A stretch of 64,000 bases of DNA. Source: Lytechinus pictus. Lineage: Eukaryota. Both the position numbers and the translations under genes were made by a program. The notes beneath the pieces were generated by a model. The model was not told where the DNA came from. It searched no databases and was given only the letters and a program-made list of their open reading frames with translations. The stretch spans positions 7,876,001-7,940,000 of the forward strand of contig NC_087250.1 in assembly GCF_037042905.1 (NCBI RefSeq), read 5' to 3'. Positions 4,781-60,328 of this stretch are shown one piece after another. How positions within the stretch are numbered: the stretch's first letter is position 1; each line of letters opens with the position of its first letter.

Positions 4781-4843
4781 GATGCTTCATGGGAAATCAA
4801 GGCAGCAAGGGCAGCAGCCATGGCCGATATAGAAGATGAGTGA
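4781..4843 (+). CDS. Terminal coding exon (DASWEIKAARAAAMADIEDE*)
   Basis: T-rich tract + catag acceptor, phase 0, TGA at 4841-4843, followed by AT-rich 3'UTR-like sequence. Confidence 0.75.
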   Translation, partial: DASWEIKAARAAAMADIEDE

Positions 4844-14480: not shown

Positions 14481-14579
14481 TCTCTATAAACTGCAATGAC
14501 TTTTTTTTAAATTAAAATCTAGACTCGAATAGAATTTTTGTTAATTCTAATGCGGTCAAGAATTCTCAAAACTGCAATA

Positions 14580-15052
14580 ATAATAAACTAGATTTGGTTG
14601 TATTTTGTTAATCCAACCGCAGTCTGTAATTATGAGAAAAAAATCAAGACTTTCGTTACACTTAGTTAATCCCAAATGCTGTCTGCTAATCCCTAGACTG
14701 CAATAATAAAATAAATCTACATTTAGTTGAATTTTGATATTCCCAATGTTAGTCTATTAATCTCGATCCAATTAAAAACAATATTTGAATTTCATATATC
14801 TTAATGTGTTCTGCTTATGTCTAAACTACAATTTATATATTTAAAAAATCCCTCTAGATTTGGTTGAATTTCGTTAATCCAAGTGCATTTTGCTACTTCT
14901 AGGCTTGCAATAGTAATCCTCTAAATTTGGATGAATTTCGTGAATAATGTTGGAATTTAGTCTTTTGATTTCTAACTCCAATGCTAAAAAAGATCTCAGG
15001 AATTGTTTGAACTTCGTTAATCTTATTGCAATTTGCTAAGTCTCTATACATG
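14580..15052 (+). repeat. Degenerate repeats copying the last ~40 nt of the GT31 CDS
   Basis: CDS end agatttggttaaacttcgttaatccaaacgcagtttgctga echoed at ~14590, 14660, 14720, 14856, 14924 and 15000. Confidence 0.75.
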
Positions 15053-28320: not shown

Positions 28321-28700
28321 GGACAACTACCCCCTGGACAATCACCCCCCGGACAACTACCCCCCGGACAATTACCCCCCTAGGACAATTACCCCCCGGA
28401 CAATTACCCCCCGGACAATTACCCCCTGAGGACAACTACCCCCCGAGGACAATTACCCCCCGGACAATTACCCCCCGGACAACTACCCCCCGGACAACTA
28501 CCCCCCGGACAATTACCCCCCGGACAACTACCCCCCGGACAATTACCCCCCGGACAACTACCCCCCCGGACAATTACCCCCCGGACAATTACCCCCGGAC
28601 AACTACCCCCCGGACAACTACCCCCCGGACAATTACCCCCCGGACAACTACCCCCCGGACAACTACCCCCCGGACAACTACCCCCCGGACAATTACCCCC
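28321..28700. repeat. 15-bp minisatellite GGACAA(C/T)TACCCCCC, left arm
   Basis: About 25 tandem units. Confidence 0.95.
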
Positions 28701-30967: not shown

Positions 30968-31358
30968 GGTAATTGTCTGGGGGTAATTGTCCGGGGGGGT
31001 AGTTGTCCAGGGGGTAATTTTCCGGGGGGTAAATGTCCGGGGGGTAATTTTCCGGGGGGTAATTGTCCGGGGGGTAGTTGTCCGGGGGGTAGTTGTCCGG
31101 GGGGTAATTGTCCGGGGGGTAGTTGTCCGGGGGGTAATTGTCCGGGGGGTAGTTGTCCGGGGGTAATTGTCCGGGGGGTAATTGTCCGGGGGGTAGTTGT
31201 CCGGGGGGTAATTGTCCGGGGGGTAATTGTCCTCGGGGGGTAGTTGTCCTCGGGGGGTAATTGTCCGGGGGGTAATTGTCCGGGGGGTAATTGTCCTCGG
31301 GGGGTAATTGTCCGGGGGGTAGTTGTCCGGGGGGTGATTGTCCAGGGGGTAGTTGTCC
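30968..31358. repeat. 15-bp minisatellite GGGGGGTA(A/G)TTGTCC, right arm
   Basis: Reverse complement of the 28321-28700 array. Confidence 0.95.
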
Positions 31359-41565: not shown

Positions 41566-42409
41566 ATGAAGAAACACGAGCGTCACTGCTTTCTTTCTGG
41601 TGTCTGCCCAGATGAACACTGCCAATCCAAACTGTACTTCCCATCATATGATCGCACCGTAGAGTGTACCAGCTGCGGACAAATACATGAATGCCGTTCC
41701 TTACGATCCGTTGCGGAAGTCACCGACCCAGATGTTGTTCTCCACAACATGGTGCGGAACCTTCTGATGGGCAACTTCGCGCCGAAGAAGACAACCGATT
41801 CCATCAAGGTCCTGGGTCTGTCCAACTACCACTGCAAGCTTCTGAGCCCTCTGCTGACGAACTTTGGCATGGACAAACAAGGCAAGGCCCAGCCGTTGGA
41901 GAGCTTGACGCAGAGCAACGTCTTCAACTGTTCCAACCTGGGCGGCCGTGCCTTTCTGATCCAACCGGAGCACATTGACATCATGGGGTACGGGCGGGAC
42001 CAGACCGGAAGCGCTCACTACCTTTGCAACACTTTGGAACAGATCAAACAAGTCAACGGAGACGAGGAAGTCCTGATACCGATACATGCCGATGGGGATG
42101 GACATTGTCTCGTCCACGGTATCTCCAGGGCTCTCGTTGGTCGTGAACTCTTCTGGCACGCCTTGAGAACAAACCTCAAGAATCACTTTGAAGAGAACTT
42201 GGACCGTTACAAGAACATGTTCAAGGATTTTGTGGATAATAGCGAATGGCCCCAGATTATAGCTGAGAGTGACCCAGACTATCTACCGGGGCCCAATGAG
42301 GCCATGGGGCTCCAGAATATTCATATCTTTGGTCTTGCTAACATCCTTCGAAGACCTATCGTCCTTCTTGACTCGCTCAGTGGACTAGAAAGCTTTGGTG
42401 ATTATTCAG
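41566..42409 (+). CDS. VCPIP1: VCPIP1 coding exon 1 (Cys-rich N-terminus and OTU catalytic Cys)
   Basis: ATG at 41566; donor cag|gtaatt, phase 1. Confidence 0.95.
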
Positions 42410-45400
42410 GTAATTGGTTTATCCTATATTTTTCTTCTTTTTGATCCTTGATTGTTGAATAGGTTGATTCTTAGTACTTCGCACAGCACCATATAATAAA
42501 ACTGGTCTTGGGATTTGAATTTTTTTGGTAAACATTATGTATTTGAGCTAAGGAAGGCAATCTAAACTATGCTTACAACACCGACACCAGCTATAACACC
42601 TAACTTGAAACCACTCAATGTAAGGTGTTTGTTTTCATAGCAATCTGAATTATACCTCCAACACCAATACCATCTCTAACACCAAACTTGATATCACTCA
42701 ATGTAAGGTGTTTTACTAACACCAGCACTAATACCAGACTTGTTATCACTGAGCATTTGTTGTTTGCTTTTATTCTGCTGTAGGAGTGTTTCTCCCTGTC
42801 TTAGATGCACTTGCTGAATACAGTGGAAGGATAATGTAAGGTGTTTGTTTTCATACCAGTGTATGAGTGTTTCTCCCTTGTTAAATACACCTGTAAAAGG
42901 ATAGTGACCTCGGTGTAAGGTGTGTTATTATCCGGTGTAGGAGTGTTTCTTTCTGTCTTAAATACACCTGGTGAATACAGCGTAAAGTATGATACATGTA
43001 CATGTAAACTCAATTTAAGGTGTTTGCTTTTATCCGGTGTAGGAGTATTTCTCCCTGTGTTAAATACACCGGCTGAATGCAGTGGAAAGGACGGTAAACT
43101 CAACAAACCTCTTTGTGTCGCTTGGAGCAGCTCTGGAAGAAACCACTTCATAGCCCTTGTAGGGGTCAAAGGTAAGTACAGGACCATGTTAAATAAAGCT
43201 AAGCGATTGATCCTAGAGATCATTTCTACGACTGATCAATTCAATACAATTCAATTCATTTATTTTTTCCATTAAAAAACATCAAAATATGTACAGTTGA
43301 AATACACATACTTATATACAAAAAAATAGATCAAATACATAAGCATAGCAAATTAATATTGTAAGTAAGAGAAATAAATGGAAAATGGAACACCTGTAGA
43401 AAGCTTTTTTTTAAAAGCTGGTCATTGGCAGGAGTCCAAAAGTTAACAAAATACAAATATAATAATAATATTAGATGGCACATGTATTTGAATTCAACGT
43501 CTTGCCCCCCTGTCCCAAACCCCTTTCCCATCTCTCTCTCTGGTAGAATTTTAAAATTAATATAGGCTAAAATTTGAATTGAAATGAAATTAATATGTCA
43601 AATAACAAATAAACTTTAAATTTTTTTTTGAAAGTACACATACACAATAGTCAATGTAAATCGATAATACAAATCAACCACCTGATCAATCGCTAAGTGT
43701 ACTTATTAGGCCCAGTAATGCCAACCTCTGAAACCCTAGCAATGAAATAAAAAGAGAAAATTAAGAAAAAAGTGTAACACTGAAAATTTCATCAAAATCA
43801 GAGGTAAGAAAAGAAAGTTGTGACATTTTAGATTTAAGCTTGATTTCACAAAACAGTTAAATGCACATTCTTCTCTGTCTGCAAATGAGGGAATTGATGA
43901 TGTTACCCACTCACTCTTTCTTCATTGCAAGTTTCTATTTAATCTAAATTATGATATGAAACTGGGGAAAAGCCATTAATGTGACATGTTGATATATCAG
44001 GCAAGGTTGTTTGAGCATGTTCTGAGTCTCTTGTTGCTTCACATCACCAACTTCGAATTCCGTTGCTAAAAATCAAGCTAAATATTAGGACGCACTTAAA
44101 TTATAAGTTGCAGTTCACAACTCAATGCAATACTCCAACTCCCTCATTCCTGCACGATACTTGACCTTTCCCCTTTGATTCCCATCAGGTCGTCCGTTGC
44201 CACGGTTACCAAGGTGGATGCTCTCGAAAGCCTGGGGGACGTCGCAAGAAGAGGTCAATAGATACATTGAGTTTGATGGCGATGGCATGTGCACCGTAGG
44301 GGGAGACAGGGCACTTACCGTAAGTGTTTAGTCATAACGACCAACTTTAAAATCTCTTCGAGCGTTTCACAATACATTTGTTGCAGTTCAAATAAATTTA
44401 GCTCTGTCCCTTTTATCGTTTACCTCTATTACACGGGCATTGCAGGTCTTAAATATGCAATATGAAAATAAAATCAAAATCCATATTTTATTGTTCGAAA
44501 TAGAAATATTTCGAAAATTAATTTTTTCCATGTTATCCTGGGCCCGGCAGCCAATGCACAGGGCCAGATCGACGTAGCTCTATCCCTTTATTCGTTGAAC
44601 GTAAAACAGGGTAGCAGCAGCTCCCATCTTTTAACATCTTTTGGTCTGATGTGGCTGGGGCATGAACTCTAACTCTCTCGGTTTTGAGACGGATGCTCTA
44701 CAAACTGAGCTAACACACCAGTTCTCATGATGTTTGAGAATAATAAAAATAATAACGTTTTATTTACCCAGGGTAGCCACTTCAGTTAGGACACTGCTCT
44801 ACCAGCGGGCCCTGCATAACATAAGATGTTATTATTACCCTTCTCCAATCTAAATGCTGAGCGCCTAGCAAGAAGGCAGAAGGTCCCATTTGTATAAGTC
44901 TTTGGTATGACTCGGCCGAGGATCGAACCCACAACCTCCCGTTCATGAGGCGGACGCTCTACCACTGAGCCACCTTAGTGGGTCAACATTTTTGTGCTGA
45001 AGTGATTATTGGATCCATGTTGAATTTAAATGTGGCGCGTTTTTCTAGTTTTTGGCATGTCGCAAATAATCCCCCCAACATGATGGAATGAACAGAACAT
45101 GAAAGAGCACTTCTGATTGGTTCCTGGTCCGTGTTCTGAACAAAATGCACATGTATCACTGCTCTTGATTGGCCGGCACCATTCAGAGATAGATTACTAA
45201 CCTTTGTTCTACAGAGCGCAAGTGGCTACTCCAAAGCCTGCTCTGTCATCACAGCTGCCAAGGATCTTATCCTATTTATTCGGATTTTTAAGGGGGGATT
45301 AACACTAAATAGAATTTTTCCTGTAGAAGGATTGTTGAAATTTGTAAGAATGATGTTTGGTATGTTTTTTAAGATTTTAGGCTTGAAAATAGGGTAGGAA

Positions 45401-48400
45401 ATAAAGGATAGGATTTTTTTTTCACAATTGAGGTTGGCAACACTGTGTTATGTTTTGATTTGATTTTTTTTCATATGTAGGAGAATTATGTACAGCGTCT
45501 AGTTACCGCAATGGAAGATCAGTTCCAAGACAAACATGGTGTCCATCCGTCATTAGTGTCTGATGTCTACAACTTTATCTCTAAGAGAACAGGTATGAAT
45601 AAAATAAATAATAAAATTTGGTTTTATCAGGAGCTGCTTTGTAGCATATCAGGGGTCGCGCTTATTTTTTTTCCCCCAACTAGCCTGTCTGGCTTGCCCG
45701 CCAGAAGTTATTTTGTCGAATTTTTCATTAATTCACAATATCACATGCAACACTGAAGTAACAGTTTGACTAGTTACACGGGCTAGCAACTTAAATTCTT
45801 AGTTTGCCTGCTGTGATTTTTACTGGCCATTGGCTAGCGGGCTAGTGTTATTTCAAACTCTGTATATACTTTTGCAGTTTGTTGTTAGGCATCTAGTTGC
45901 TCCCAAGATGTGCCCATGGAAACTGCTATTGCCTTCCAGTCAGGATATTGCAAGTTATTGACCAAGTGTGTAGTTGGAGCTGCTCCTCACCCTGGGTCCC
46001 GTAACACAAAGGTTAGCAATTAATCGTAAGCTTGATTGTTACGATTGATTGTACATTGTAGTCAATCGTAGAAAAATGTTCTACGATCATTGCTAAGCTT
46101 TGTGTTACGGGCCCCAGATCACAAGGAGAAGGAGGAGAACTCTACCTGGTGGGTGTTTCATGAAAGGATTTTATCCGATAGTTACCATAGTAACAGTACC
46201 TCTCAGCCAATCAACATCAGAGAAAGATGTCAGATCTGACAACTTGTTGGATGAAAATGTTGATGAAACACTCCCCAGATGGCTATGAAGCAGATCGTCA
46301 TGCCTCATCTAATCTGCAGTGTCTCAGGTGCCTTATCCTCAAGGCTACAATAGCTCATCCTCTGGTCTGAAGGAAGGCGGAGAACTCAACCTGATGGCTA
46401 TGAAGCAGATCGTCATGCCTCATCTAATCTGCAGTGTCTCAGGTACCTTATCCTCAAGGCTACAATAGCTCATCCTCTGGTCTGAAGGAAGGCGGAGAAC
46501 TCAACCTGATGGCTATGAAGCAGATCGTCATGCCTCATCTAATCTGCAGTGTCTCAGGTACCTTATCCTCAAGGCTACAATAGCTCATCCTCTGGTCTGA
46601 AGGAAGGCGGAGAACTCAACCTGATGGCTATGAAGCAGATCGTCATGCCTCATCTAATCTGCAGTGTCTCAGGTACCTTATCCTCAAGGCTACAATAGCT
46701 CATCCTCTGGTCTGAAGGAAGGCGGAGAACTCTACCTGATGGCTTAACAAACCAATGTTTCTGGGACCATTGTTGTTGAGTTAATTTTCTTTTGATATTC
46801 TTGATGTACAGGTATTGGTGGTATTCACCAGAATGTGATCATTGAGCATACCAGAGCATCGGTTCAGGATCATCAATTATACAGATGCCTCATCTGTTCT
46901 GCAGTGTCCCAGGTACCCTATCCTCAAGGCTACAGTGGCACACCCTCTGGTCTCAAGGAAGGAGGAGAACTCTACCTATTGGCTAAACAAACCAATGGCA
47001 CTTTACAAGAAGGACGGGTCTATGACTTCCCTACACAAGGTAATAATTATGTTAATCCTTAATTATAGGTGGTTAGTATTTTTTTTGGTCAAAGGCCCAT
47101 TGCTTTAAAAAGTTGCTATTTAGTAAGTTTGTCATGCTCAATAGCCTATCAGCATCAAGGATTTGGAATTTCTTTGCATAGTCTCATGAATAATTATAAA
47201 TCTTACCAAAGGTTTTGTGTTTTCATAAATGCAAATTCCTTATTCTTTGGTGTTCAGGACATCATATTCTGTGTACTTCAGTATTATTGACAAAACATAT
47301 ATGTTAAAGCAATAATTATGGAAGTAGTAAAGTCTAAGAAAAAACATGTAAGTTTCCATTATATGGATACTGTGGTATTCAGATAAAACTTGTTGAAGGC
47401 ATTCTCAACATGGCAAGCAAGTTTGATTGGCAGATTTTCCACTGATGCAAGGTTTTGTTTATTGGAGTTTGCTTTCATTTTCCATAATTTTTCATGATTC
47501 TTCCCAGATTCTGAGAAATGTTTTAGTCTTCAGTATTGCAGAAAATCAGGGATTTTACCTGTTACATGGTCAATAAAATGTCAAATAGCAAATTGATGTG
47601 TTTTTTTTTTCTTTTCTTGTTTGTCAACAGACATCCAGTGTACCTACGATGCATCCTCAGATGAACTCATTCCGGACCATACCTTCAATCAGGATGCCAC
47701 GTGCCCATGGTGTAAAGGGTTAGTGTTAAATGAATGTCAAGGCAGGGTTCAAATGTCACAAGTTCAAAGGAATTCAAAGGTCGCACATTGAGTTTCAAGG
47801 CCTAATTGATAAAAAAGGTTGAGTTTCAAGTTATCATCTTCCGTGAAAGAACAGTCTACCAGGTTGGTGTTTCATCTTACTTGTAGAACTGTGCAAGAGT
47901 ATGTGCAGTGCTGTGGAAGATCTATTCTACTGCGGTTAAAAAGAATCAGCGCAGTCTTGGCGCAGTTAGATTTTCTGCACCTCATCCTTGAAGCTGGCTA
48001 CTGAAATGCAATTAACTGTAGTGGCAGGGAGAATATTCCAGTGTAATGGCATCAGGAATAAAGGTTTTCTGGTAACAGTGCAAGCATGTGGGACGTGTAA
48101 CCTCATCTGATGACCACGAAGCGAGGTGAACGTAGCAGCCTGGTTGAAGTACTGTACCGTTGGTACATCAACAATTGTATTTACCAAGCGATAAACTATC
48201 ACCACCTTGAACTAGGCTCTTCTCTCTTTAAGGGTGGGCCACTGTAGCTGTCGTAGCATATCGGGTTAATTGGGTTTAATGGTTATTGGGTCACAGAGAT
48301 CATTGAGACTCAAAATTCGTTGGGTTTCAAGGGCCATATATGGTCTCGTCATTGTGTCTCAAAGGTCGTTATGTTTCAAAGGTCGTTGAGTTGCAATGGT

Positions 48401-51400
48401 TGCAAAGCTTTTTTTTGGTTCTTTTTGTTAATTGCTACATATTTTGTTATATTTGTTCTTCATCTGAAAAACAGAAATTACAAGGCTAAATCTATTGGTA
48501 TCGGAGTGCCCCAGGGCTGTGTTCTGTCTTCTATGTTATTTACATATTACACTTATAATTGTATATTGCAGCAAAACCAGTTTTCAGGATTTTTTTTTTA
48601 TTTCAGGCCCTGATAACTTCCAATAACAGACCTTTTCAGGATTAATATTGCACATAACATATAGGGCCTTGACGTGGTCTGGTCCGAGTAAGATAAGGCT
48701 TAGATATTGATCACACGGTTGATTCTATGATTTATTGCAATGATTTTTTTTGTATGATTCAGCTTAAGATCAGCCCCATGATCAATTACTAAGTTACTTG
48801 AACAAAAGAACTCAATATGTATGTGTAAATAGTGTATCTTCTGAAATAAGACATAACACCTATGGTGTTCCTCAGGGATCAGTATTAGGTCCCTTATTAT
48901 TTTTGTTATTCATGAAAACCATTAGGGTCTTGCCTTCTTTTCACGCCCAGTCAGTGAGTAAAACACATGCAAGGCAATGGCTTCAGCCTCTAAGATGGCG
49001 GGACGATGACGTCAATGCACAAGGTCTACAATGTCGATGTTTCTATTGTATTTTCTAGCAAGCAGCTTCGCCGGGTGAAAACCGATGGCAGTATTGTCTA
49101 CATGAACGGCGATAGGACCAGTGCTGCGTCAAGTTCTACGACTTGTAACTGCGGCCATAAACATTTCTGGGATGGCGTGGAGTATGATAACCCTCCTAAA
49201 ATGTAAGTTTATTTCTTCATTTTCACGTGTAGTGAGAATTGTTTTAAAAACATTTCAAATTTCATTTAATGCTTTATGACATTGATTTTAAATGCATTTT
49301 GTAACAAAACATTTGTTGTTGGGTCAACCCTGCCTGTAATCGTTTTTTAATTCCATTTTAAGAACATCCCCCAAAATAAGTGGATTTGAATAAGAGGTTA
49401 TCAGCAATAACCTATCAACGATAAGGGAGCTAAGGAATTACTGATAAAATTATCTTACATTTGTGTGGGTGCATGAACATTTTCGTTTCAATATTCAACA
49501 AAAATTAAGATGAAAATAGATAGATTTTAGGAGCTTTTTAAATGCTTCAAATAAAAGTAAACAAGTAAACAAGTAACAAGTAAACAAGTAAAAGATTGAC
49601 AATTCTATAAATATCAGAACCTCTTTTTCTAACCCCCAAGATTCAAATTTCCTCTTGCTTGGAAGGGAGTGACTATCATAGCAAAGACAAAATATACATA
49701 TTGTCCTTGACCCTTTGTATGTTTGTCTTTTTTATAATATGTCTGAGATTCAAAGTTCCTCTTGTTTGGAAGGGAACTACTATCAAAGAGGACTTATACA
49801 TTTTGTCCATGCTCCTTTTTCTTAGTTTCTCTCTTTTTTGTCCATCTCTTAAATTCAAAGTTCCTCCCATTTGGAAGGGAATTACTATCAAAGAGGACTC
49901 ATGCATATTGTCTTTGCTCCTTTTCATGTATGCGTTTTTTTTTTTTTTCATCTTTCGTAGATTCAAAGTTCCTCTTGTTTGGAAGGGAAAGACGATAGAG
50001 GAGGAGGTCGTTTGGTTCCAGAACGAGCCGGATCCGTTCATGAACAGCAATGCATTCAAACTTGCAGAGTCTCTGGTCAATAAACATTATCCGGGAGAAT
50101 TCGGTAACGAACAACTCGTCCAGAAGGTGGTCGAATCCATACTACACAATGTAAGAAAAATTAACTTGTATGTATGGCACGGTGACACGACATTTGCTCC
50201 GGCGACAATTGCTCTGGGCTTTATTTCGTCTAAGATAGGGTTAGGGTTGCAATAGGGTTTTTTGTTAGGTTTAGGGTGGGGTACAAGTGTTAGTCCAGGG
50301 ATGAAGTTGGTCATTCCATTTGTGTGCGGAATTAACAGTGGAGCAATTGTCGCCAGAGCAAATGCCATGGGAACCGTACTTCACACCACAGAAATGGCTT
50401 TATGAAACTTGCTCTGGCGACAAATGCTCTATTGGAAAATCTGCACGTTAAGCCAAACACAAGCTCTAACCTCCAGAACTAAATAAACCCCAATTCTTAT
50501 CTTTACATTATTCTGAACAAAAAACTCTTTCACAATCCTAATATAATCCTAAGCGTCGTGGTGTAGCGGTTCTGACTGTCGCCTTGTAATCAGAGGGTCA
50601 TGTGTTCGAATCCCACCATGGCCTAGCGTCCTTTGGCAAGGCGTTAATCCACACTTTGCCGCTCTCCACCCAGGTGTTAAATGGGTACCCGGTAGGATGT
50701 GAAAGCCTATATGTAGTATGCCTAGCAATTGAGTCTTGGAACTCTTGTTGGAATGCTCCCCAGGGAGTGGAGAAGGTGCATACATTGTATGCGGGCATGC
50801 AAGGATCCGATGACCGGGGTTATAATATGTCTGTAAAGCGCTTATAGACGTCGAAGACCTGAGCATATGTCGCAGGAGCAAATGTCACGTCACCCGCAGT
50901 AATACTGTATGTCAATAAACGTTTCCATGGGGAACTTAGTAATGAACAATTCGTACAGAAGCTGGTAAAAGCAATACTACACAACGTACGAAAATTTAAC
51001 TTGAACGTACTTCACACATCAGAAATTTGTTATCGACACATAAATACCAGTTGGAACTAGGGCTGTTATCGATAATGTCTTTATCGATAGTCTCGTTGAT
51101 AATCGCTTGTTTTTGCCACTTAGCGATATCGATAACCTTTCTCTCTTTGTCGATAATACCCACTATTATGTAGGGGCACAGTGATTTTCCGCGATTTCAA
51201 GGAATTCACGGAAACGGCCCTTTGAAAGTGGCTTTTCGAACAGAAAATCACGAAAAAAACGTATTTTTCATCAAACTGCACAGAACAGCAACAGAAATTA
51301 CTCCAAAATCTCAACAAAATAACTAGCCACAAAACACAATCTCACCCCCACTTCGCTATTATTATAGCTAGTGTGTGACATCGCTATAATGCATAAAAAA

Positions 51401-53222
51401 TGTGTATTGATTATGTTCTTTTGTCGATAGTTATCGATATGGTTCAGATATTTTTAGCATGATTTCGACAGAGAATTTTCTCAACGATAACAGCCCTAGT
51501 TGGAACAGAATTGTTTATGGTGACTGAAATTTTTTTCCTCATTGAAGCCGGTACCAAATGATATGTCTGATTATGTAATAAATGCTCAAATGAAATCATT
51601 CTCAAGTTTCTCAAAAGCACTGTATTACCAATAAGAGAGCTGATTGCACCTGACGTCACAAAACCAAAACTTAAAAAAACTGTATCTGTGTTAATGTTAA
51701 GTTGATTTTAGCCAAATTTTCACTGCTATGTTATATTTTTCTGCTTTTATTAAAACCAACTTCCCAAGGGGGTTAACTTCCCATTTTAGGTCTGACGTTT
51801 CCGAGCGCACAGCATCCGTCTTAGAATTTTTAAGCAGAATCTATAAAAATGCCTGGGTTGCTTGACCAGATATTCTATGTGTATCATATAACTATGCCTT
51901 ATCTTTTTTTTTTGCTGAGAAATGAGCAAGATAAGCATGATTTTCAAAAAATGCCCGGTATTTTTCCACGCAATATTAATACACTGTCCCACATATGCCT
52001 TTTTGTGCTAGTTATCATCAGAATATCAGTTTTCAGCTAAGATTTCATATTTCATGAAGGTAAGCTGATGTCAATGTATTAGATCTATATCTATGATAAT
52101 ATGGTGTTAATTGACCTTGATTTTAAAGGCTTTTTCATGAAATAATTGTTTGCTGCAACTAATTTCTTTTACCTTTAACTCAAAATTGATTCCCCACAGA
52201 CTGCAAGCAGGGAGGCAGCCTACCAACCACCCTCACTGTCTGATATGCCTCGCCCGAGTACATCATCAACGGTAAAACCAGAGGAAGCTTCAAGTAGCTC
52301 TACTGAAAAGCCAGGTAACAATACTTCACTATAGAGTAGTACGGTTTTAAAGGAAACCAAATCCCAAGAAGAGAATCAATCTTATTATTGATAATAATAA
52401 TAGCTGGATTTATAAAGAGCGTTTTGCCTGAGGATACAAAGCGCTGCTATTGTTACCCCTGCTTTAGCTTGAGCTACCATCAACGGCGCTCAGTGCATGC
52501 AAGGAATTACTCCTGCGGGTACCCATTCACCTCACCTGGGTCGAGTGCAGCACAGTGTGGATAAATTTCTTGCTGAAGGAAAACACGCCGTGGCTGGGAT
52601 TCGAACCCACTACCCTCTGTTTCAAAGGCGAGAGTCAGAACCACTAGACCACGACGCACCCACAATATTAGAAAGAGTAAAATGAGAGGAACAATTTAAA
52701 ACAAGTTTCATCAAAATCGGTTTTGAAATAAGCAAGTTATGGACGTTTAGAAAGTCTTTGATTTGCTTTCTTTGTGGATTCTCATATTGGCAAACATCCT
52801 TCAGAATGACAGATATTGTGGTCAACTCTCCATTTGTTTTGTACACAATTTTTCAGATTTTCCCCTTTATCTTTCAAATTGCATCTTGCCTCCTTCTGAG
52901 CATAACATATATGTCATGGGAAAACATCATTTACATGGTGGTAATGATGATAATCATTGATATGAGGCTCTTACGTAACATTCCTCCCAACAGAAGGTGT
53001 GGAGAGTTTACCAATCGAAGGGAGAGACTCGCCGAGGAAGCAATTGGGGATGAAAAACAAGGAAGCATCTGTTGCAAGCTCTTCATCCATGAATTCACCA
53101 TCTAAGATTATCCTCTCCGGTGGGGTAAGTTCAATCCATTCATATTTTACTTTCATTAGTAGTAGTTTTAATAATAATATGATGATGATGATGATGATGA
53201 TGATAATAATAATAATAATTCA

Positions 53223-53259
<37 letters not shown>

Positions 53260-53270
53260 GATGATGATGA

Positions 53271-53346
<76 letters not shown>

Positions 53347-53383
53347 GCTACTACTGCTACTACTGCTACTACTGCTACTACTG

Positions 53384-53429
<46 letters not shown>

Positions 53430-56400
53430 TACTACTACTTTTGCTACTACTACTTTTGCTACTGCTACTACTACTGCTACTGCTACTGCTACTACTACTA
53501 CTGTTACTACTACTACTACTTTTTTTTCAAATTTCTCAAATTTCACCCAGGGTAGCCACTTCAGTATCTTGAAACTGATGATTTCCATTTGTATAGATGC
53601 CTTCTTATTTTATTATTATCATAAATATTATTATAATCGTTATTATTAATACATTATTATTACTATTTTTATCATTATTATTATCTGTATGTATAATGAT
53701 ATTATTGTTTTTATTATACATCATCGTTTTGGTGCAGAAATGCCCTATATGCAATGCACTTAATTTTTTTCTTGTGTGCCTGTGAAGCTTGAAGGTGAGG
53801 TGTTAAGGGCGTTCTTGCACCGACACAACATTATTGATATTATTATGATGATGGTTATTATGATTGCTTGGCATCATTTCCATTATTTCTTTATTATTTT
53901 TTTTTTGCAGTCAAAATCACTGCATAAGGAGGAACTGACGATGAGTGAAACGGAGAGAGCTCTCAGAAAGAAGATAGCGAAGAACGCTCCTCAAAATCAA
54001 CAAAAGAAATCCTTAGAACAGTTGGATCGATCCAACCAGTCGTCATCTTCGTCAGGGGTCGGGGAGATGAAGTTTGTTGCCATGGAGACCGTGTCGTCAA
54101 GGACAATAGAGCCCCCGAGTGATATACGGATCAAGCTTAGCTCCTCTGACGGGAAACACGTAAGTCATAGATGATGTATGATATTTGTATTCTGCTTTTT
54201 ATATAGCCCTTGATGCATTGCAAAGACGTCTCTGTACACAGAAACATTATTACAAAGGTTATTGGATCCTGGCTTGGCCGGATACAATGTATGCACTTTC
54301 TCCACCCCTTGAGGAGCAGTTCAAGAGTTTTCATATTCAATTTCTATGAATACTACAAAGGCATTCGTATCTGATTGGATTAAACACCTGGTGGCCGTTT
54401 CATAAAGCTGTTCGTAAGTTAAGAGCGACTTTAAGAACGACTGGTGAACCTTTTTTAGGCGCTTAATCATCGCCAATGAATATACCATTTACCACAAGAA
54501 AGGTTTACCAGTCGTTCTTAAAGTCGCTCGTAACTTACGAACAGCTTTATGAAACACACACTTGGGGGTCGTTTCATAAAGCTGTTCGTAAGTTAAGAGC
54601 AACTTTAAGAACGACTGGTGATCCTTTCTTGCGCGCAAAATCATCGCCAATCATGCAATGGTGTGTACCATTTACTACAAGAAAGGATCACCAGTCGTTC
54701 TTTAAGTCGCTCTTAACTTACGAACAGCTTTATGAAACACCCGCCTGGTTAGAAAGTGACAAAGTGTGCATTGATGCATTACCAAGGGACACTACATGTA
54801 TGCCGTGGTTGAATTAAATTTTCAATATTCGGCTACATTATTAATATTCTCCTTTTCTAAATACACTGGTCTTTGATGCATCAGTTACTTATTCTCAGCT
54901 TCAGACCCTGATCAAATATAAGTATCAATATTCAGCTACTATCTTATTCTACTTTTCAGACTACATATCTCTTGGATGTGTCAACTAGTTATTGTTAGCT
55001 CCGGACCCTTATAGACCAGTTCGTAGTTACTCATGGACAATTTTCGGTCAAATGACCTTTCATTTCTTTCATTATGATAGGCAGATTTCAAAGCAAAATA
55101 TTACGTAAGCTTGCCTTACATAGCAGGATGAAGAAATTGAATAGACCAGGTGGGTGTTTCATAAAGCTGTTCGTAAGATAAGAACGACTTTAAGAACGAC
55201 CGGTGATCCTTTATGTTGGTAAATGGTATACACCATAGGCGATGGTTTAGCGCGTACGAAAGGATCACCAGTCGTTCTTAAAGTCGCTCTTAACTCACGA
55301 ACAGCTTTATGAAACGGCCTCCTGGTGACTAGAATAGCACACCAATGAACACTTTATGAAGGTATTTGTTGCATTCCTACTTTGAATGCATATCATAGCA
55401 TGTTGCACAATGTACTTGGCAAACTGTGAAATACCAGTCGTTCGTGGACGCGTTGTTTTTTTTTGTGGATGTAAATGAAAACCACAATTCAAAAGAATAT
55501 ATGAATAATCAAGACATCAAAGTTGGTGCTTATCTCATTAGATTTTAAACCACCATGTCACTTTAGTACAAATGACCTTCCTCTGATCATGCGTTGAATC
55601 TTTTGATCATGCGCAGAAAGGAACTACGAACTGGCTTATTGAATTCAAATGTCAATATTCAACTACTTTCATATTCTGCCTTTCAGACTACACTGGTCCT
55701 GGCTGCATCAACTACTTATTCTCAGCTCCAGACCCTCATAGAATCTAAGTTGCACATTGCTTCAGCCAAGCAGAGGATCAAGTATGGCTTTCCCCCGAAA
55801 GAGCTTAGGGCGCCCCCTAGTGGTGAGGAAGGTAGTTCGCTGCCATTGAGGAATGGAGATAAAGTAACCGTTGAAGTCATACAGGATATTAGTAGAGGTA
55901 TTGTTAAACTTTTCATACGTTCAAATTCTTTTGTTTTATTTACTATTTTCTTTGAACTAGGGTTGGCATAGCAATGACATTTTGTTCTAGAATATATATT
56001 AAACCAATTTTGTTTTAAAGATTATTAAAAACGTTCTAAAGGTAAAAGAAAGTAGTTGCAGCAAACAATTATTTCCTGAGAAAGTCTTGTAAATCAAGAT
56101 GAATGTAACCATATTATCATATATCTAGAAGTGGTATATAAATAAAAACTTATCTTTGTGAAATCATAAAAACTTAGCTCAAAACCGATAGTGCTGTTGA
56201 TCACAAACACAGAAAAGCAGTGTGGGACAGTGTATTGATATTGCTTGGAAAAGTACCTGACTTTTGATGGAATTTCATGCTTATTATAGCTCATTTCTCA
56301 GCAATTACGCATTTTCTTCCAGAGCTATTTGGCACATAATTTTTATTAATAATAATATATACAAACACTTTGATGGCAATTTAATTGGATTCTGTTCAAA

Positions 56401-59400
56401 CTCATTTTGACATTATTCCCACAACTGGTATTTATCTTTAAACCAGAATGAGGGGGCATGGGTTAGTTAAAAAAAAAAACATGATAAGCTTGTGACCATT
56501 TGATATAGGCATTATGATAATGGAATATCACAGAAAATGACGAATAAAAATTGACCTTAATCATTTTGTGACTTTCTTATCATTTAGCTGATCCCCATTA
56601 CATGGCATCTGGAATAGCAGCTACCAAGCAAAAGAGGATCAGCGAACAAGGATTAAATCAAGGTGCTATTCTGAAAGAATTTCAGAAAGACATCAACAAG
56701 ATGCATGAGAGTGATGGTAAGCATCCATTTATCAATGGAAAAAAAGAATCATACTGAATGACAGGAATGCTATCAAAATAAGGAGTTCAGTTTATAAATA
56801 GAGTTGAATGACAGGAATGCAATCAAAATGAGGAGATCAGTTTATGAATAGAGACAGGAATGCAATCAAAATTATGAGTCCCGTTCATGAGTAGAGTTGA
56901 ATGACAGGAATGCAATCAAATTATGAGTCAAGTTTATGAGTATAGTTTAATGACAGGAATGCAATCAAAATTATGAGTCCCGTTTATGAATAGAGTTGAA
57001 TGACAGGAATGCTATCAAAATTATGACTCCAGTTTGTGAGTAGAGTTGAATGAACGGAATGCAATCAAAATTATGAGTCCATTTGAGAGATAGTGACGGT
57101 AAGCATCAGTTTATCCCTAGGGCCCTGATTCTGAAGTCAGGTTCAACCTAGACCACGGTCTAACCCTGTACTAAAATTATGGGGAGCCAAAATTTCAAAA
57201 ATTAAGTTTACATTGTATATTTCTTATGTTTAGGATTTGAGTCGAATGAAATTAATTGAATTGACAGTTTGAATCTTGTTTAATAAAAGGAATGCAATGT
57301 AAAATATGACTCGAGTTGAATGAAAAGATTATAATTTGTAATAGTCTGAGTCGAGTTGAATGAAAGAAATTCAATTGAAAATATGTAACTTGAAGCCTTG
57401 GCCTGCTACATGTATATGTTGAGTTGAATGAAATAGATGCAATTGAAAATATGAGTTGAGTTGCATGAAAGAAATTCAGTTGAAGATATGAGTTGAGTTG
57501 CATAAAAAGATATTCATTTGGAGATATAAGTTGAGTTGAAGGAAAGAAATGCAGTTGAAGATATGAGTTGAGTTGCATGACATGAAAATAGTTGAATTGA
57601 AGGAATTCAATTGAAAATATGCATTGAGTTGAGTGAAAAGAATTCCAATGAAATTTTGACTCGAGTTGAAATAGGGAAATAGGATTTGAGTTGAATGAAA
57701 TTAATTGAATTGATAGTTTGAATCTTATTTAATAAAAGGAATGCAATGTAAAATACGACTCGAGTTGAATGAAAGGAATTCAATCAAAAATATGTGACTT
57801 GAAGCCTTGGCCTGCTATATGTTGAGTTGAATGAAAGAGATGCAGTTGAAAATATGAGTCCAGTCTTATGATCAGAGTTGAATGAAATGAATTCAATTCT
57901 GAATATGGGTGGAGATGAATGAAAGGAATACACGTGAAATAGGAGTTGAGTTTAATGAAAGGAATGTAAAGTGAAAATAGGAGTCAAGTTGAATGAAATG
58001 AATTCAATTCGAAATATGTAATTTTTAAAATGGAAGGAATGCAATTGAGTGAGTGGAGTTGAATGAAAGGAATGCAATAATATCTACATGTATTTACACC
58101 CCTACAGAAAGCAATCTAGAGGTCCAACTGACTTCCCATACCCTGATGGCTGCATTGAATGGATTGGACCTGTGGAACTATTCAAAGAGGAAGCCTGAAC
58201 TATTCTCAAGAGGGGGGTTATTTTACAACATTGTTGAGAGGGACCTAGGTCTTGAAGATGGCAAACATTGCATGCTGCCCTCTATACCCAAGAAGGTAAT
58301 ATATTTATTGTTTTAAAAGAGTTACAGTTTTCTCCTTTTGAAGACCCTTTTGCAACTGGTTTCTAATTATACTGAATGAGCCGTTTCACTTGAGTTAATT
58401 ATCACACACTTTAAATTTGCAATACAAGGAAAATAACAAAATCACTGTTTTAAAATGAAAATTGGTAACTTTTTTTGTAAATTTATTATTTATCATTAGT
58501 TTTGAAATATCAATATTTCATTTTTTGGAAAAAGTATAAAAATGAATAGAAAATTAATGAGTTATTTAATTGGATTGATTTATGATTCATTATTGCTCTT
58601 GGAAGGCCACATGATGTCCAAGTTATTTACTTGTTAGTACTAAGTGTAACTGGTTTTCTCTGCATGTTAAAGTTCGAATCTGCGTCTATTTTGACACCAT
58701 AAGATATAGTAAATAGTACGATTAGATCAATCAATAGCTTTTTGTGGGCGTGTCATGGTCTAGTGGTTCTGACCCTCTGCTTTCAAACGGGATTTTGGGT
58801 TTGAATCCTGGCCATGGCGTGTTTTCCTTCAGCAAGAAATTTATCCATATTGTGTTGCACTCAACCCAGGTGAGGTGAATGGGTCCCAGCAGGATTAATT
58901 TCTTGAAATGCGCTGAGCGCAGATGATGGTAGCTCGCGCTAAAGCCTGGGTAATAATAGCAAGCGCTTTTTATCCTCAGGCAAAAAGCGCTATATAAATC
59001 CAGCTATTATTATATTATTATTCTAACATGTATTTCTTTCTATCTTGTGTTGGACAGAGATTCCGTTTCTCCCAACCCAATGATCGTCTGGAGCTCTGTC
59101 TAGAACCCCTAGGTCACTTCCCCGTCTCATCTGAGGTGGACGACCTTGAGAAGTTCAAGGACGTGGCCTTGGGTCAGAGGTCGTTGGAGATGAGCGAGAG
59201 TGAGGTCGACCTTGAGGCTTCGTCCAGTGGGTACGTTGCATTTGCTGGGAGGGGTCATTCGTTGAGCGTTGATGGAGGGGCTACAGTAGCTGATGGAGCT
59301 ACAGCTTCAAGGAAATATCCCAAGTTTGGTGGGGACTGTGAAGGCGATGGAAAGCAGGGTTTAGAGATGGCCATGGACCAAGTGCAATACGAGGAGAGTC

Positions 59401-59990
59401 ACATTCCAAGCCGATCGGAACACCCCTATGGTGGAATGGATGAGTCCATTCTGAAGCAGGGGCAGTGTGTTGAAATGGAGCATTCCAAAGAAGGTGCAGG
59501 CATTCAGAGGGGAGAAGGTGAGGGGATGACTGAAGGAGGGAAAGGAGAAAGGGAAATTCCTATGGATGTTGAGGATGAGGCGGTCGAAACGAGTAAGCCT
59601 ACACCAATGGAGGTGGACGCCTCTGATCAACCCATGCCAGAACCTTTCAACCAATCACAGACAGCTTCTCTGGTGGCTGAGCTACGGAGGTCTACGACGG
59701 AACCCGTGATTGGTGCAATATCGCAAGAGGCGGCAATAAACAGGACAGCCTCTGAACCCAGTTCGCAGCTCCCTCCCAACATCACCGCTGAGCTACCTGC
59801 CAGTAGCTCCTCTCAGGGAGCAACGAATACAAACCCATCTCAAGGAGACATCAATCTATCGGACTCTGTGATTGGTTCTGAGGGGAAAGACAATAGAGAG
59901 ATAGCCAATGAGGATTGTTCTTATGTTTCCAGGAGACTAGGTCCTGGCTACACAGTGCTTGTAAAGAGAGAAGATGAAGACAAATCATAA
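41566..59990 (+). CDS. VCPIP1: Deubiquitinating protein VCIP135 (OTU + UBX-like), whole spliced CDS, 15 coding exons, 3822 nt, 1273 aa
   Basis: Signature motifs DGDGHCLVH.SRALVGRELFWHALR, AWSSSGRNH, CGHKHFWDG.EYDN, KH.PGEFG.E.LVQKVV, LHKEEL.MS, QRIKYGFPPKEL, DGKHC, DRLELC; all 14 introns GT-AG and phase-consistent. Confidence 0.95.
43043..43171 (+). CDS. VCPIP1: VCPIP1 coding exon 2 (OTU His: WSSSGRNHF)
   Basis: gtgtag| ... aaag|gtaagt, phase 1 to 1. Confidence 0.9.
44189..44319 (+). CDS. VCPIP1: VCPIP1 coding exon 3 (RPLPRLPRWMLSKAWG...VGGDRALT)
   Basis: catcag| ... acc|gtaagt, phase 1 to 0. Confidence 0.9.
45481..45592 (+). CDS. VCPIP1: VCPIP1 coding exon 4 (ENYVQRLVTAME...KHGVHPSLVSDV)
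   Basis: atgtag| ... acag|gtatga, phase 0 to 1. Confidence 0.9.
46279..46757 (+). repeat. 115-bp tandem repeat x4 derived from VCPIP1 exon 5
   Basis: atggct at 46279, 46394, 46509, 46624, 46739; unit aligns to 46885-46998. Confidence 0.92.
46812..47039 (+). CDS. VCPIP1: VCPIP1 coding exon 5 (LYRCLICSAV)
   Basis: tacag| ... caag|gtaata, phase 1 to 1. Confidence 0.9.
47631..47718 (+). CDS. VCPIP1: VCPIP1 coding exon 6 (CTYDASSDELIPD...CPWCK)
   Basis: caacag| ... aagg|gttagt, phase 1 to 2. Confidence 0.85.
47966..48205 (-). mobile_element. LINE ORF2 C-terminal fragment (CR1/L2-like)
   Basis: RGH...WNILPATTVN..SVASFK motif typical of non-LTR ORF2 ends. Confidence 0.6.
48795..48912 (+). mobile_element. 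LINE reverse-transcriptase fragment
   Basis: LNKRTQYVCVN...YGVPQGSVLGPLLFLLF; second fragment GVPQGCVLSSMLFTYYT at ~48490-48555. Confidence 0.75.
49059..49202 (+). CDS. VCPIP1: VCPIP1 coding exon 7 (DGSIVYMNGDRT...CGHKHFWDG)
   Basis: ttctag| ... aat|gtaagt, phase 2 to 2. Confidence 0.9.
49961..50150 (+). CDS. VCPIP1: VCPIP1 coding exon 8 (WFQNE...KHYPGEFG)
   Basis: cgtag| ... aat|gtaaga, phase 2 to 0. Confidence 0.9.
50552..50846 (+). mobile_element. tRNA-derived SINE nested in a MITE (50397-50895)
   Basis: A-box tggtgtagcgg, B-box gttcgaatcc; host MITE family also at ~7487-7703 and ~50180-50376. Confidence 0.75.
51058..51498. mobile_element. hAT-like MITE
   Basis: TIR tagggctgttatcg / cgataacagcccta; perfect 8-bp TSD gttggaac. 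Confidence 0.9.
52200..52314 (+). CDS. VCPIP1: VCPIP1 coding exon 9 (Ser/Pro-rich linker)
   Basis: cacag| ... ccag|gtaaca, phase 0 to 1, open frame. Confidence 0.75.
52388..52662 (-). mobile_element. tRNA-derived SINE
   Basis: Reverse complement of the 60033 copy. Confidence 0.85.
52994..53124 (+). CDS. VCPIP1: VCPIP1 coding exon 10 (SPSKIILSG)
   Basis: aacag| ... ggg|gtaagt, phase 1 to 0. Confidence 0.85.
53170..53520. repeat. Compound (GAT)n/(AAT)n/(ACT)n microsatellite
   Basis: Direct reading. Confidence 0.95.
53911..54159 (+). CDS. VCPIP1: VCPIP1 coding exon 11 (LHKEELTMSETER...IRIKLSSSDGKH)
   Basis: ttgcag| ... cac|gtaagt, phase 0 to 0. Confidence 0.9.
54391..54744. mobile_element. 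Two adjacent palindromic Harbinger-like MITEs
   Basis: gtttcataaagctgttcgtaagttaagagc ... cttacgaacagctttatgaaac twice; CTG at both outer flanks; third copy at 55150-55321. Confidence 0.8.
55011..55640. mobile_element. Inverted copy of the 4247-4698 MITE carrying a nested palindromic MITE (55150-55321)
   Basis: Direct alignment to the empty copy. Confidence 0.85.
55687..55897 (+). CDS. VCPIP1: VCPIP1 coding exon 12 (UBX-like, QRIKYGFPPKEL)
   Basis: tttcag| ... agag|gtattg, phase 0 to 1. Confidence 0.9.
56588..56716 (+). CDS. VCPIP1: VCPIP1 coding exon 13
   Basis: tttag| ... gatg|gtaagc, phase 1 to 1, open frame. Confidence 0.75.
56755..58078. repeat. Degenerate gagttgaatga(a/c)aggaatgcaat satellite filling VCPIP1 intron 13
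   Basis: ~48-bp units at 56755-57080, shorter units and a ~450-bp duplication (57240 vs 57690) downstream. Confidence 0.85.
58108..58295 (+). CDS. VCPIP1: VCPIP1 coding exon 14 (DLW...LFSRGGLFY...DGKHC)
   Basis: tacag| ... aag|gtaata, phase 1 to 0. Confidence 0.9.
58746..59022 (+). mobile_element. tRNA-derived SINE
   Basis: Same family as the 60033 copy; TAT tail abuts the exon 15 acceptor region. Confidence 0.85.
59058..59990 (+). CDS. VCPIP1: VCPIP1 terminal coding exon 15 (DRLELC, AFAGRGHSL, disordered tail)
   Basis: gacag| phase 0; TAA at 59988-59990. Confidence 0.9.
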   Translation, partial: RFRFSQPNDRLELCLEPLGHFPVSSEVDDLEKFKDVALGQRSLEMSESEVDLEASSSGYVAFAGRGHSLSVDGGATVADGATASRKYPKFGGDCEGDGKQGLEMAMDQVQYEESHIPSRSEHPYGGMDESILKQGQCVEMEHSKEGAGIQRGEGEGMTEGGKGEREIPMDVEDEAVETSKPTPMEVDASDQPMPEPFNQSQTASLVAELRRSTTEPVIGAISQEAAINRTASEPSSQLPPNITAELPASSSSQGATNTNPSQGDINLSDSVIGSEGKDNREIANEDCSYVSRRLGPGYTVLVKREDEDKS

Positions 59991-60032
59991 TGTAGAGAGA
60001 AATGATACATACTTTTATTTAATCCCTGTATT

Positions 60033-60328
60033 TGGGTGCGTCGTGGTCTAGTGGTTCTGATTCTCGCCTTTCAAACAGAGGGTCTTGAGTTTGAATCCTA
60101 GCCATGGCATGTTTCCCTTCAGCAAGAAATTTATCCACACTGTGCTGCACTCGACCCAGGTGAGGTGAATCGGTACCCGGCAGGATTGATTCCTTGCATG
60201 CACTGAGCGCCGGTGATGGTAGCTCGAGCTAAAGCCAGGGTAATAATAGCGAGTACTTAGTATCCTCAGGCAAAAAGCGATATATAAATACAGCTGTTAT
60301 TATTATTGTTATTATTATTATGTTATTA
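60033..60328 (+). mobile_element. tRNA-derived SINE in VCPIP1 3'UTR
   Basis: tggtctagtgg A-box, family body, (TAT)n tail. Confidence 0.85.

What the first reader, a model, noticed from the sequence alone, without database searches (positions are those of the whole stretch)
42560..57115. Recurrent 'exon-boundary echoes': degenerate copies of exon edges in introns along VCPIP1
Seen: six sites have local decayed copies of exon sequence, five of them including the splice junction: before exon 2, before exon 5, before exon 8, after exon 8, before exon 12 and after exon 13. Tandem units are roughly 75-115 bp. The exon copy stays intact while the intronic copies drift. The same pattern occurs at the GT31 stop codon. 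Inference: either frequent short tandem duplication that is only recognisable (and tolerated) where anchored on an exon edge, or a process biased to junctions. Either way it supplies decoy or alternative splice sites and could be a route to intron growth.
Basis: partly seen in the sequence, partly recalled or inferred. Interest (0 to 1): 0.72.

Follow-up and report, generated by a model that had tools for sequence, protein, structure and literature searches.

The report
Exon-edge tandem copies in urchin VCPIP1
Short stretches that straddle the edges of several coding exons of a sea-urchin gene have been copied head to tail into the neighbouring introns; this is a known, tolerated kind of minisatellite, unusual here only because so many sit in one gene.

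Summary
In this 15-exon sea-urchin VCPIP1 gene, decayed copies of exon-edge sequence lie in the adjoining introns. Four sets clearly span a splice junction: exon 2, 8 and 12 acceptors and the exon 8 donor. One is short but significant (exon 13 donor). One is a copy of exon-internal sequence (exon 5). The end of the GT31 coding sequence is echoed in the same way.

The copies are local and are not a dispersed repeat. Where they now lie 700-800 bp from their source, mobile elements have inserted in between.

A junction-biased process is not supported. Across 138 junctions chosen blind to repeats elsewhere in this genome, only 1 carries such a copy. Ordinary non-junction points carry one at a copy-weighted rate of 1.45%. 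Arrays with similar unit sizes are about as dense in introns elsewhere as in the window's intergenic DNA.

VCPIP1, at 4 of 28, is an outlier (P 0.0007 to 0.16 depending on the control). It was picked for this pattern, so the excess is unproven.

The scan noted the same pattern before, in a kinase gene 625 kb away (e1-7787412). I re-found it at 3 of 12 exon edges there.

Closest known: human minisatellites whose end monomer spans an exon-intron boundary (F7, 6-16, CBS, LMNB2, PDGF). Verdict: a new member of a known kind, of modest interest.

The parts
41566..59990 (+). VCPIP1 coding region, 15 exons: 41566-42409, 43043-43171, 44189-44319, 45481-45592, 46812-47039, 47631-47718, 49059-49202, 49961-50150, 52200-52314, 52994-53124, 53911-54159, 55687-55897, 56588-56716, 58108-58295, 59058-59990
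   Evidence: tblastn with P0001 and a splice-site-guided model. A transcript contig of run X1 joins exons 5, 8, 11, 12 and 15 at these borders (table 8).
42761..43102 (+). Intron 1 / exon 2 array. Three decayed copies (42761-42828, 42833-42891, 42904-42994) of a roughly 82-bp unit made of 22 nt of intron, the 3' splice site and about 60 nt of exon 2. The authentic unit is about 43021-43102.
   Evidence: (D9, D14)
42557..42713 (+). 83-bp x 1.9 array further up intron 1. It shares only the unit-joint motif with the exon 2 array. Its body has weak matches on three other contigs.
46275..46757 (+). 115-bp x 4.1 array in intron 4, 99% alike internally. It copies exon-5-internal sequence and carries no junction.
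   Evidence: (D2, D5)
46885..46997 (+). Source stretch inside exon 5 of the intron 4 array (100/113 identical to 46645-46757). An older scrap lies at 46112-46152.
49639..50005 (+). Intron 7 / exon 8 array. Copies at 49639-49676, 49716-49792 and 49834-49897, plus the authentic unit that ends 45 nt into exon 8. Periods are 107, 105 and 108 bp.
   Evidence: (D8, D11)
50076..50174 (+). Source unit at the exon 8 donor: 75 nt of exon and 24 nt of intron.
50911..51009 (+). Decayed copy of the exon 8 donor unit (77/99). It is separated from its source by repeat DNA that includes a young 303-bp SINE-like element at 50551-50853.
   Evidence: depth, table 2
54809..55015 (+). Two head-to-tail copies (54809-54923, 54925-55015) of the exon 12 acceptor unit.
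55016..55634 (+). Composite mobile element that fills exactly the gap between the copies and the authentic exon 12 unit.
   Evidence: Full-length (1-619) matches at 81-89% on other contigs.
55635..55750 (+). Authentic exon 12 acceptor unit: about 50 nt of intron and 64 nt of exon.
56707..57115 (+). Exon 13 donor 27-mer (56707-56733), a 50-bp satellite (56755-57084) and the 27-mer's copy (57089-57115, 23/27).
   Evidence: (D20)
14427..15048 (+). End of the GT31 (Galactosyl_T) coding sequence, with its stop at 14478-14480, and at least four decayed downstream copies (14590-14626, 14634-14748, 14856-14894, 15000-15048).

Best explanation
These are ordinary minisatellite-type tandem duplications with units of about 80-115 bp. 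They probably arose by replication slippage or unequal exchange (inferred). By chance, each duplicated segment straddled the edge of a coding exon.

The copy that stays joined to the rest of the exon remains under purifying selection and is still the one spliced. The other copies became intron DNA and decay neutrally. Later events blurred the picture. One sub-unit was re-amplified (115 bp x 4 at 99%), and mobile elements inserted between copies at the exon 8 donor and exon 12 acceptor.

The results are longer introns partly made of former exon sequence, and a set of mostly silent pseudo splice sites. No junction-specific machinery is needed. Edge-anchored arrays stay recognisable longer because one copy cannot drift. 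Arrays wholly inside exons are removed by selection.
For: SHOWN:
- The copies are head to tail, or were. The 619-bp gap at exon 12 is exactly one mobile element with full-length copies elsewhere. The exon 8 donor gap holds a young 303-bp repeat.
- The arrays are local. Searches of the own genome with four of the arrays found only the locus itself and the exon copy, apart from three weak hits to the 83-bp unit.
- Arrays of the same unit sizes are common away from exons: 35 families in 200 kb of other genes (0.175 per kb) and 11 in 45.5 kb of the window outside the gene.
- Blind junction test. The junctions came from exon-sized Pfam matches (myosin head and kinase). Junction-spanning copies were found at 0 of 101 and 1 of 37, so 1 of 138. 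Control points scored 41 of 1260 raw and 1.45% copy-weighted.
- The same pattern occurs where there is no splice site, at the GT31 stop codon and with exon-5-internal sequence.
- The neighbouring gene (P0121) has no array on any exon edge in 16 kb.
- Decoy AG is kept in 5 of 8 copies. Neutral decay at 15-25% divergence predicts 4.5-5.8.
- A transcript contig joins the authentic sites at exons 5, 8, 11, 12 and 15 with exact exon spacing (table 8).

KNOWN ELSEWHERE: minisatellites whose end monomer spans an exon-intron boundary are described in human F7, 6-16, CBS, LMNB2 and PDGF (PMC1557585, passages read), and in genes within human segmental duplications (PMC2812944, passages read).
Against: VCPIP1 has 4 of 28 junctions with spanning copies, against 1 of 138 in the blind sample (Fisher P 0.003). 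Against control points the excess depends on the yardstick: P 0.0007 with the genome-sample rate, 0.016 with the window's own copy-weighted rate, and 0.13-0.16 if exon-anchored copies stay detectable twice as long or if raw rates are used.

A kinase gene 625 kb upstream shows the same thing at 3 of 12 exon edges. Two such genes among few windows is more than a uniform rate of about 1% per junction predicts (P for 4 or more of 28 is 4e-5 to 7e-4). Both genes were picked because of the pattern, and I do not know how the windows were chosen.

The exon 5 array is not a simple tandem product. Its nearest copy lies 240 bp from the source, and the 127 bp between them is not duplicated.

Junctions in the blind sample were predicted from Pfam match ends and consensus signals, not from transcripts.
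Confidence: 0.7

Rival explanations
1. A gene- or locus-specific process makes duplications preferentially at the edges of coding sequence in certain genes. Candidates are transcription- or splicing-coupled breaks repaired by template switching, or local recombination hot spots.
For: The events cluster: 4 of 28 junctions in VCPIP1, the GT31 stop codon in the same window, and 3 of 12 edges in a kinase gene 625 kb away. The blind sample gives 1 of 138. Repeat families away from junctions in VCPIP1 are at background density, so the surplus is made of edge arrays.
Against: Both genes were selected for the pattern. The adjacent gene has none on its exon edges. Acceptors, donors, a stop codon and exon-internal sequence are all affected, so no single splicing signal is the target. 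The junction's position within the unit varies, with an intron share of about 0.24-0.56.
Confidence: 0.15
2. The intronic copies are kept by selection as working alternative or decoy splice sites, for example regulated in-frame insertions or splicing decoys.
For: Use of two decoy acceptors would add in-frame sequence without a stop: start 42941 adds 102 nt and start 49748 adds 213 nt. The frame stays open for 117 codons upstream of exon 8.
Against: AG retention of 5 in 8 matches neutral decay. The open frame is expected from pyrimidine-rich 3' intron sequence, which holds few stop codons (inference). The five other retained decoys give frameshifts or early stops. The assembled transcript uses only authentic sites at exons 8 and 12.
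Confidence: 0.06
3. The copies are carried by a mobile element that captured exon fragments, or they are assembly artefacts.
For: Mobile elements lie next to or between several copies. The 83-bp unit at 42557-42713 has weak matches on three other contigs. The copy number of the 99%-identical 115-bp array could be mis-assembled.
Against: Exon-derived units match nowhere else in the 812-Mb assembly. The copies are 12-27% diverged from their source, which read mis-joining cannot produce. Independent contigs from two runs cover parts of the intron 1 array (table 8).
Confidence: 0.03

Closest known systems
Human minisatellites whose first monomer spans an exon-intron boundary: F7 intron 7 (37 bp), 6-16 (IFI6) intron 2, CBS intron 13, LMNB2 (100-bp monomer), PDGF intron 4 (81-bp monomer). 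Taken from PMC1557585, abstract and introduction passages read.
   Same: The arrays are head to tail and the end monomer contains the authentic splice site plus some exon. Pseudo-sites are reiterated in the intron, and the authentic site is the one normally used. Monomers of 81-100 bp in LMNB2 and PDGF match the unit size here.
   Different: The human cases listed there are all donor-side, young, near-identical polymorphic VNTRs, one per gene. Here three of the five junction cases are acceptor-side, so the working copy is the last one. The copies are old and decayed (12-27% diverged). Several sit in one gene. Polymorphism was not examined.
Internal tandem repeats at exon-intron boundaries of human genes in segmental duplications (De Grassi and Ciccarelli 2009, PMC2812944, passages read)
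   Same: Minisatellite-size units overlap exon-intron boundaries and lengthen introns.
   Different: That study concerns recently duplicated paralogues, and variable repeats that create new introns or alternative transcripts. Here the gene is a conserved single-copy gene with pre-existing introns, and no alternative transcript is shown.
[quoted passage not shown]
   Same: A short tandem duplication touching exon sequence turns former exon sequence into intron.
   Different: Here the duplicated unit already contains intron sequence and an existing splice site. An existing intron grows, and no new intron is made.
Earlier finding of this scan, e1-7787412: a kinase gene 625 kb upstream in the same genome
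   Same: The pattern is the same. I re-found junction-spanning arrays at three donors of that gene.
   Different: The cases I confirmed there are donor-side, with units of 55-205 bp.

Membership tests
Minisatellite with an end monomer spanning an exon-intron boundary (F7 / 6-16 / CBS / LMNB2 / PDGF type) | Head-to-tail repeats with a unit of tens to about 100 bp | tested here: met
   Periods are 81-102 bp (exon 2), 105-108 bp (exon 8 acceptor) and 103-115 bp (exon 12). The exon 12 array becomes strictly tandem once the 619-bp mobile element is removed.
Minisatellite with an end monomer spanning an exon-intron boundary (F7 / 6-16 / CBS / LMNB2 / PDGF type) | The end monomer holds the authentic splice site and part of the exon | tested here: met
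   Met at 4 of 28 junctions by a uniform test that required at least 12 nt on both sides. A fifth case, the exon 13 donor, rests on a 27-nt match. It is not met for the exon 5 array.
Minisatellite with an end monomer spanning an exon-intron boundary (F7 / 6-16 / CBS / LMNB2 / PDGF type) | The splice signal is reiterated as pseudo-sites in the intron | tested here: met
   AG is kept in 5 of 8 acceptor copies and GT in 2 of 2 donor copies.
Minisatellite with an end monomer spanning an exon-intron boundary (F7 / 6-16 / CBS / LMNB2 / PDGF type) | The authentic site, not the pseudo-sites, is used in mRNA | tested here: inconclusive
   One assembled transcript contig (run X1) uses the authentic sites at the exon 8 acceptor and donor and the exon 12 acceptor. 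The exon 2 acceptor is not covered. The raw-read joint table was swamped by repeats, so minor use cannot be excluded.
Minisatellite with an end monomer spanning an exon-intron boundary (F7 / 6-16 / CBS / LMNB2 / PDGF type) | Copy-number polymorphism (VNTR) | not tested
   No population or long-read data were examined.
[quoted passage not shown] | A new intron is created between the duplicated proto-splice sites of a purely exonic segment | tested here: not met
   The duplicated units contain 22-60 nt of intron sequence upstream of the AG, or 24 nt downstream of the GT. The introns therefore existed before the duplications.
Tandem exon duplication / mutually exclusive exons | A whole exon with both splice sites is duplicated and stays coding | tested here: not met
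   Only 45-75 nt of one exon end is copied. tblastn finds only short partial matches in the copies.

The most novel reading that the evidence does not exclude
Edge-anchored duplications are not spread evenly. In a subset of genes or chromosome neighbourhoods of this sea urchin, a local process repeatedly duplicates about 100-bp segments at the borders of coding sequence. The process might be coupled to transcription, splicing or recombination. It would make exon-derived DNA a regular source of intron growth and of new splice sites.
Probability: 0.12. Interest if true: 0.6.

Novelty: new member of a known kind. Interest (0 to 1): 0.3.

Why it matters
The locus gives a clean, datable picture of one way introns grow. 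Former exon sequence, copied with its splice site, now makes up 42-77% of three introns of a conserved housekeeping gene.

Three arrays are acceptor-side, so a near-identical pseudo 3' splice site lies upstream of the working one. For exon 2 it lies 102 nt upstream and use of it would stay in frame. I found no description of acceptor-side cases in the papers I searched. They would be a natural test bed for 3' splice-site choice.

If the clustering in a few genes proved real genome-wide, it would point to a local duplication process tied to coding-sequence borders. On present evidence that is not shown.

Tried and rejected
1. RNA evidence for decoy use. Read laying on the whole gene with two raw RNA runs, one contig run that proved RNA-like and one DNA contig run. 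Gene depth was only about 1-10 reads. The joint table was filled by repeat-derived joints (1830 rows not shown), so no splice joints of VCPIP1 were listed. Only the contig pieces in table 8 were usable. The look-up of sequencing runs listed no holder on record as RNA among the indexed runs.
2. Orthologous introns. No echinoderm genome other than the window's own is held. The relative's DNA contigs (run X6) stop aligning at 49938 and 55635, which are the upstream ends of the authentic exon 8 and exon 12 units. At 88% likeness this cannot tell absence of the arrays from divergence.
3. A larger blind sample. Only 25 of the 64 exon-sized kinase matches that I listed could be fetched.
4. A regional hot spot. 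The window's control points carry copies more often than the genome sample (29 of 380 against 41 of 1260, P 0.0007). By family count the difference is not significant (0.24 against 0.175 per kb, P 0.18). The adjacent gene has no edge arrays. This reading is neither established nor excluded.
5. A simple tandem origin of the exon 5 array. Rejected: the 127 bp between the last copy and its source has no counterpart upstream, with local scores at shuffle level.
6. Literature. Gao and Lynch 2009 (PMC2791625) is not held. Searches for acceptor-side boundary minisatellites and for sea-urchin intron minisatellites gave nothing specific in their listings.
Full report
WHAT THE WINDOW IS

The window is sea-urchin DNA. 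The large open frame at 41545-42444 matches VCPIP1 (VCIP135) deubiquitinases. The best match is a Lytechinus variegatus protein at 95% identity. A neighbouring gene's product is listed as a Lytechinus pictus protein on a contig whose length equals that of the window's own contig.

I mapped the L. variegatus protein onto the window and refined the borders at GT/AG sites. This gave 15 coding exons between 41566 and 59990. They encode 1273 residues, and 1208 of 1279 aligned positions are identical. A transcript contig in run X1 joins exons 5, 8, 11, 12 and 15 at these borders. Its spacing fits exons 6-7, 9-10 and 13-14 (table 8).

THE OBSERVATION

All six sites are real. Coordinates, identities and shuffle scores are listed in the observation check. 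In outline:
- Exon 2 acceptor: three copies of a roughly 82-bp unit that spans the 3' splice site.
- Exon 8 acceptor: three copies, at periods of 107, 105 and 108 bp.
- Exon 12 acceptor: two head-to-tail copies.
- Exon 8 donor: a single copy.
- Exon 13 donor: only a 27-nt match, but no shuffle reached its score.
- Exon 5: the 115-bp x 4.1 array copies sequence from inside the exon and carries no junction.

The end of the GT31 coding sequence, with its stop codon, is repeated at least four times downstream.

WHY TWO SITES ARE NOT TANDEM NOW

The 619 bp between the exon 12 copies and the authentic unit (55016-55634) match other contigs over their full length at 81-89%. The gap is therefore exactly one composite mobile element, and the array was once strictly head to tail.

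The 736-bp gap at the exon 8 donor holds a 303-bp element with many 98%-identical copies elsewhere. It also holds other high-depth repeat DNA (table 2).

LOCAL OR DISPERSED

Searches of the 812-Mb assembly with the exon 8, exon 12, exon 5 and exon 2 arrays returned only the locus itself and the exon copy. The exception is three weak matches to the 83-bp unit at 42557-42713, which shares only its joint motif with the exon 2 array.

The copies are too diverged to be assembly artefacts. Two independent contigs cover parts of the intron 1 array, one of them from a relative about 5% divergent, so at least that copy probably predates their split.

IS IT MORE THAN CHANCE, AND IS IT TIED TO JUNCTIONS

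I built a uniform test. A 140-nt query centred on a point must have a same-strand local copy within 1.3 kb. The copy must score at least 28, must not be low-complexity, and must cover at least 12 nt on both sides of the point. In VCPIP1 this finds 4 of 28 junctions.

For a sample chosen blind to repeats I used exon-sized matches of two Pfam domains in the window's own genome: kinase with 132 matches and myosin head with 69. I fetched 15 myosin regions chosen for holding at least two matches. I also fetched 25 kinase exons taken in E-value order among those I listed as having no internal stop and an open frame of at most 200 aa. Thirty-nine further listed kinase matches could not be fetched.

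Junctions were predicted from match ends and splice consensus. Four of 105 predicted junctions in the first batch were dropped for lying within 200 nt of a locus end. The result was 0 of 101, then 1 of 37, so 1 of 138 with a 95% upper bound of 4.0%.

Control points every 100 bp in the same twenty 10-kb loci, at least 150 nt from known exon ends, scored 41 of 1260 (3.3%). A random present-day point is counted once per array copy, so the fair comparison weights each hit by the reciprocal of its copy number. That gives 1.45%. Junctions in general are thus not enriched. One was seen where about 2.0 are expected (P of one or fewer is 0.40).

Repeat families with offsets of 40-1200 bp number 35 in that 200 kb (0.175 per kb). 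There are 11 in the 45.5 kb of the window outside the gene (0.24 per kb) and 7 in the gene itself (0.38 per kb).

HOW UNUSUAL VCPIP1 IS

- Against the blind sample, Fisher P is 0.003.
- Against control-point rates, P is 0.0007 with the genome sample.
- It is 0.016 with the window's own copy-weighted rate of 3.5%.
- It is 0.13-0.16 if anchored copies stay detectable twice as long, or if raw rates are used.

The gene was flagged because of this pattern, so these values overstate the case.

I fetched that gene and found junction-spanning arrays at three donors out of 12 exon edges tested. The gene directly upstream of VCPIP1's neighbours, P0121, has four local repeat families in 16 kb and none touches an exon edge. 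So a few genes look hot. Whether that is a real heavy tail or selection by the first-stage reader cannot be settled here.

MECHANISM

The most likely account is ordinary minisatellite birth by short tandem duplication, followed by neutral decay of the copies that are cut off from the exon. Several points fit:
- Arrays of the same unit sizes occur genome-wide.
- The pattern appears at acceptors, donors, a stop codon and with exon-internal sequence.
- The junction's position within the unit varies.
- Retention of the decoy AG (5 of 8) matches neutral decay.

The duplication mechanism itself, slippage or unequal exchange, is inferred and not shown. The exon 5 case needs an extra step, because the 127 bp between the last copy and its source is not duplicated.

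CONSEQUENCES

Array DNA makes up 77%, 43% and 42% of introns 1, 4 and 7.

Of seven retained decoy sites, five would give a frameshift or an early stop. Two would add in-frame sequence without a stop: 102 nt from 42941 and 213 nt from 49748. The open frame upstream of exon 8 is plausibly a by-product of pyrimidine-rich sequence. No use of any decoy is shown.

COMPARISON WITH WHAT IS KNOWN

Minisatellites whose end monomer spans an exon-intron boundary are described for human F7, 6-16, CBS, LMNB2 and PDGF, with monomers of 37 to 100 bp and mostly silent pseudo-sites (PMC1557585, passages read). Tandem repeats at exon-intron boundaries that lengthen or create introns are described for human genes in segmental duplications (PMC2812944, passages read).

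The tandem-duplication route to new introns (PMC3443670 section 8; PMC2891723 passages) is related, but it is not what happened here, because the units already contain intron sequence.

This locus differs from the human cases in three ways: several decayed arrays sit in one conserved gene, three are on the acceptor side, and one is at a stop codon.

VERDICT

The ordinary reading is favoured and the junction-bias reading is not supported. The clustering in this gene is suggestive but unproven.

Noticed in passing
window 43033-43071: The exon 2 acceptor lies inside a perfect 8-bp inverted repeat (CCGGTGTA ... TACACCGG) with a 23-nt spacer. Such a hairpin-prone stretch might favour slippage. Read directly from the sequence.
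   Followed up: no
window 50551-50853: A 303-bp SINE-like element sits in intron 8. At least 39 copies at 97-98% identity lie on many contigs (8679 first-look candidates, 40 scored), so the family looks very young and active.
   Followed up: partly
window 58733-59022 and 60021-60313: An 84%-identical direct repeat brackets the whole last coding exon of VCPIP1. It ends 36 bp before the acceptor and restarts 31 bp after the stop codon. Read depth there is very high, so these are probably two copies of a common mobile element.
   Followed up: no
window 28321-28700 and 30968-31358: Two arrays of about 25 copies of a 15-mer (GGACAATTACCCCCC and its reverse complement) lie in inverted orientation about 2.3 kb apart. 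They look like the arms of a large inverted-repeat element.
   Followed up: no
window 49611-50255: The reading frame of exon 8 stays open for 117 codons upstream through the intron 7 array. The two units nearest the exon are 105 and 108 bp, both multiples of three.
   Followed up: partly
window 1290-1388, about 3117-3326, 4781-4843; locus L044 7241-7987 and 8732-9052: These are the exons of a repeat-rich gene whose product is named 'neurofilament heavy polypeptide-like' in a public source (P0121). The weak Pfam GEMIN8 hit on 2931-3338 (E 0.002, below the cut-off) is probably spurious.
   Followed up: partly
window 53223-53520: A (TAC)n microsatellite of about 99 repeats in intron 10 is flanked by other trinucleotide runs.
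   Followed up: no
locus L026, gene-sense 1184-1467: This is the single junction-spanning copy in the blind sample. The acceptor of a kinase exon on contig C2 is duplicated about 145 bp upstream (115/145 identical).
   Followed up: no
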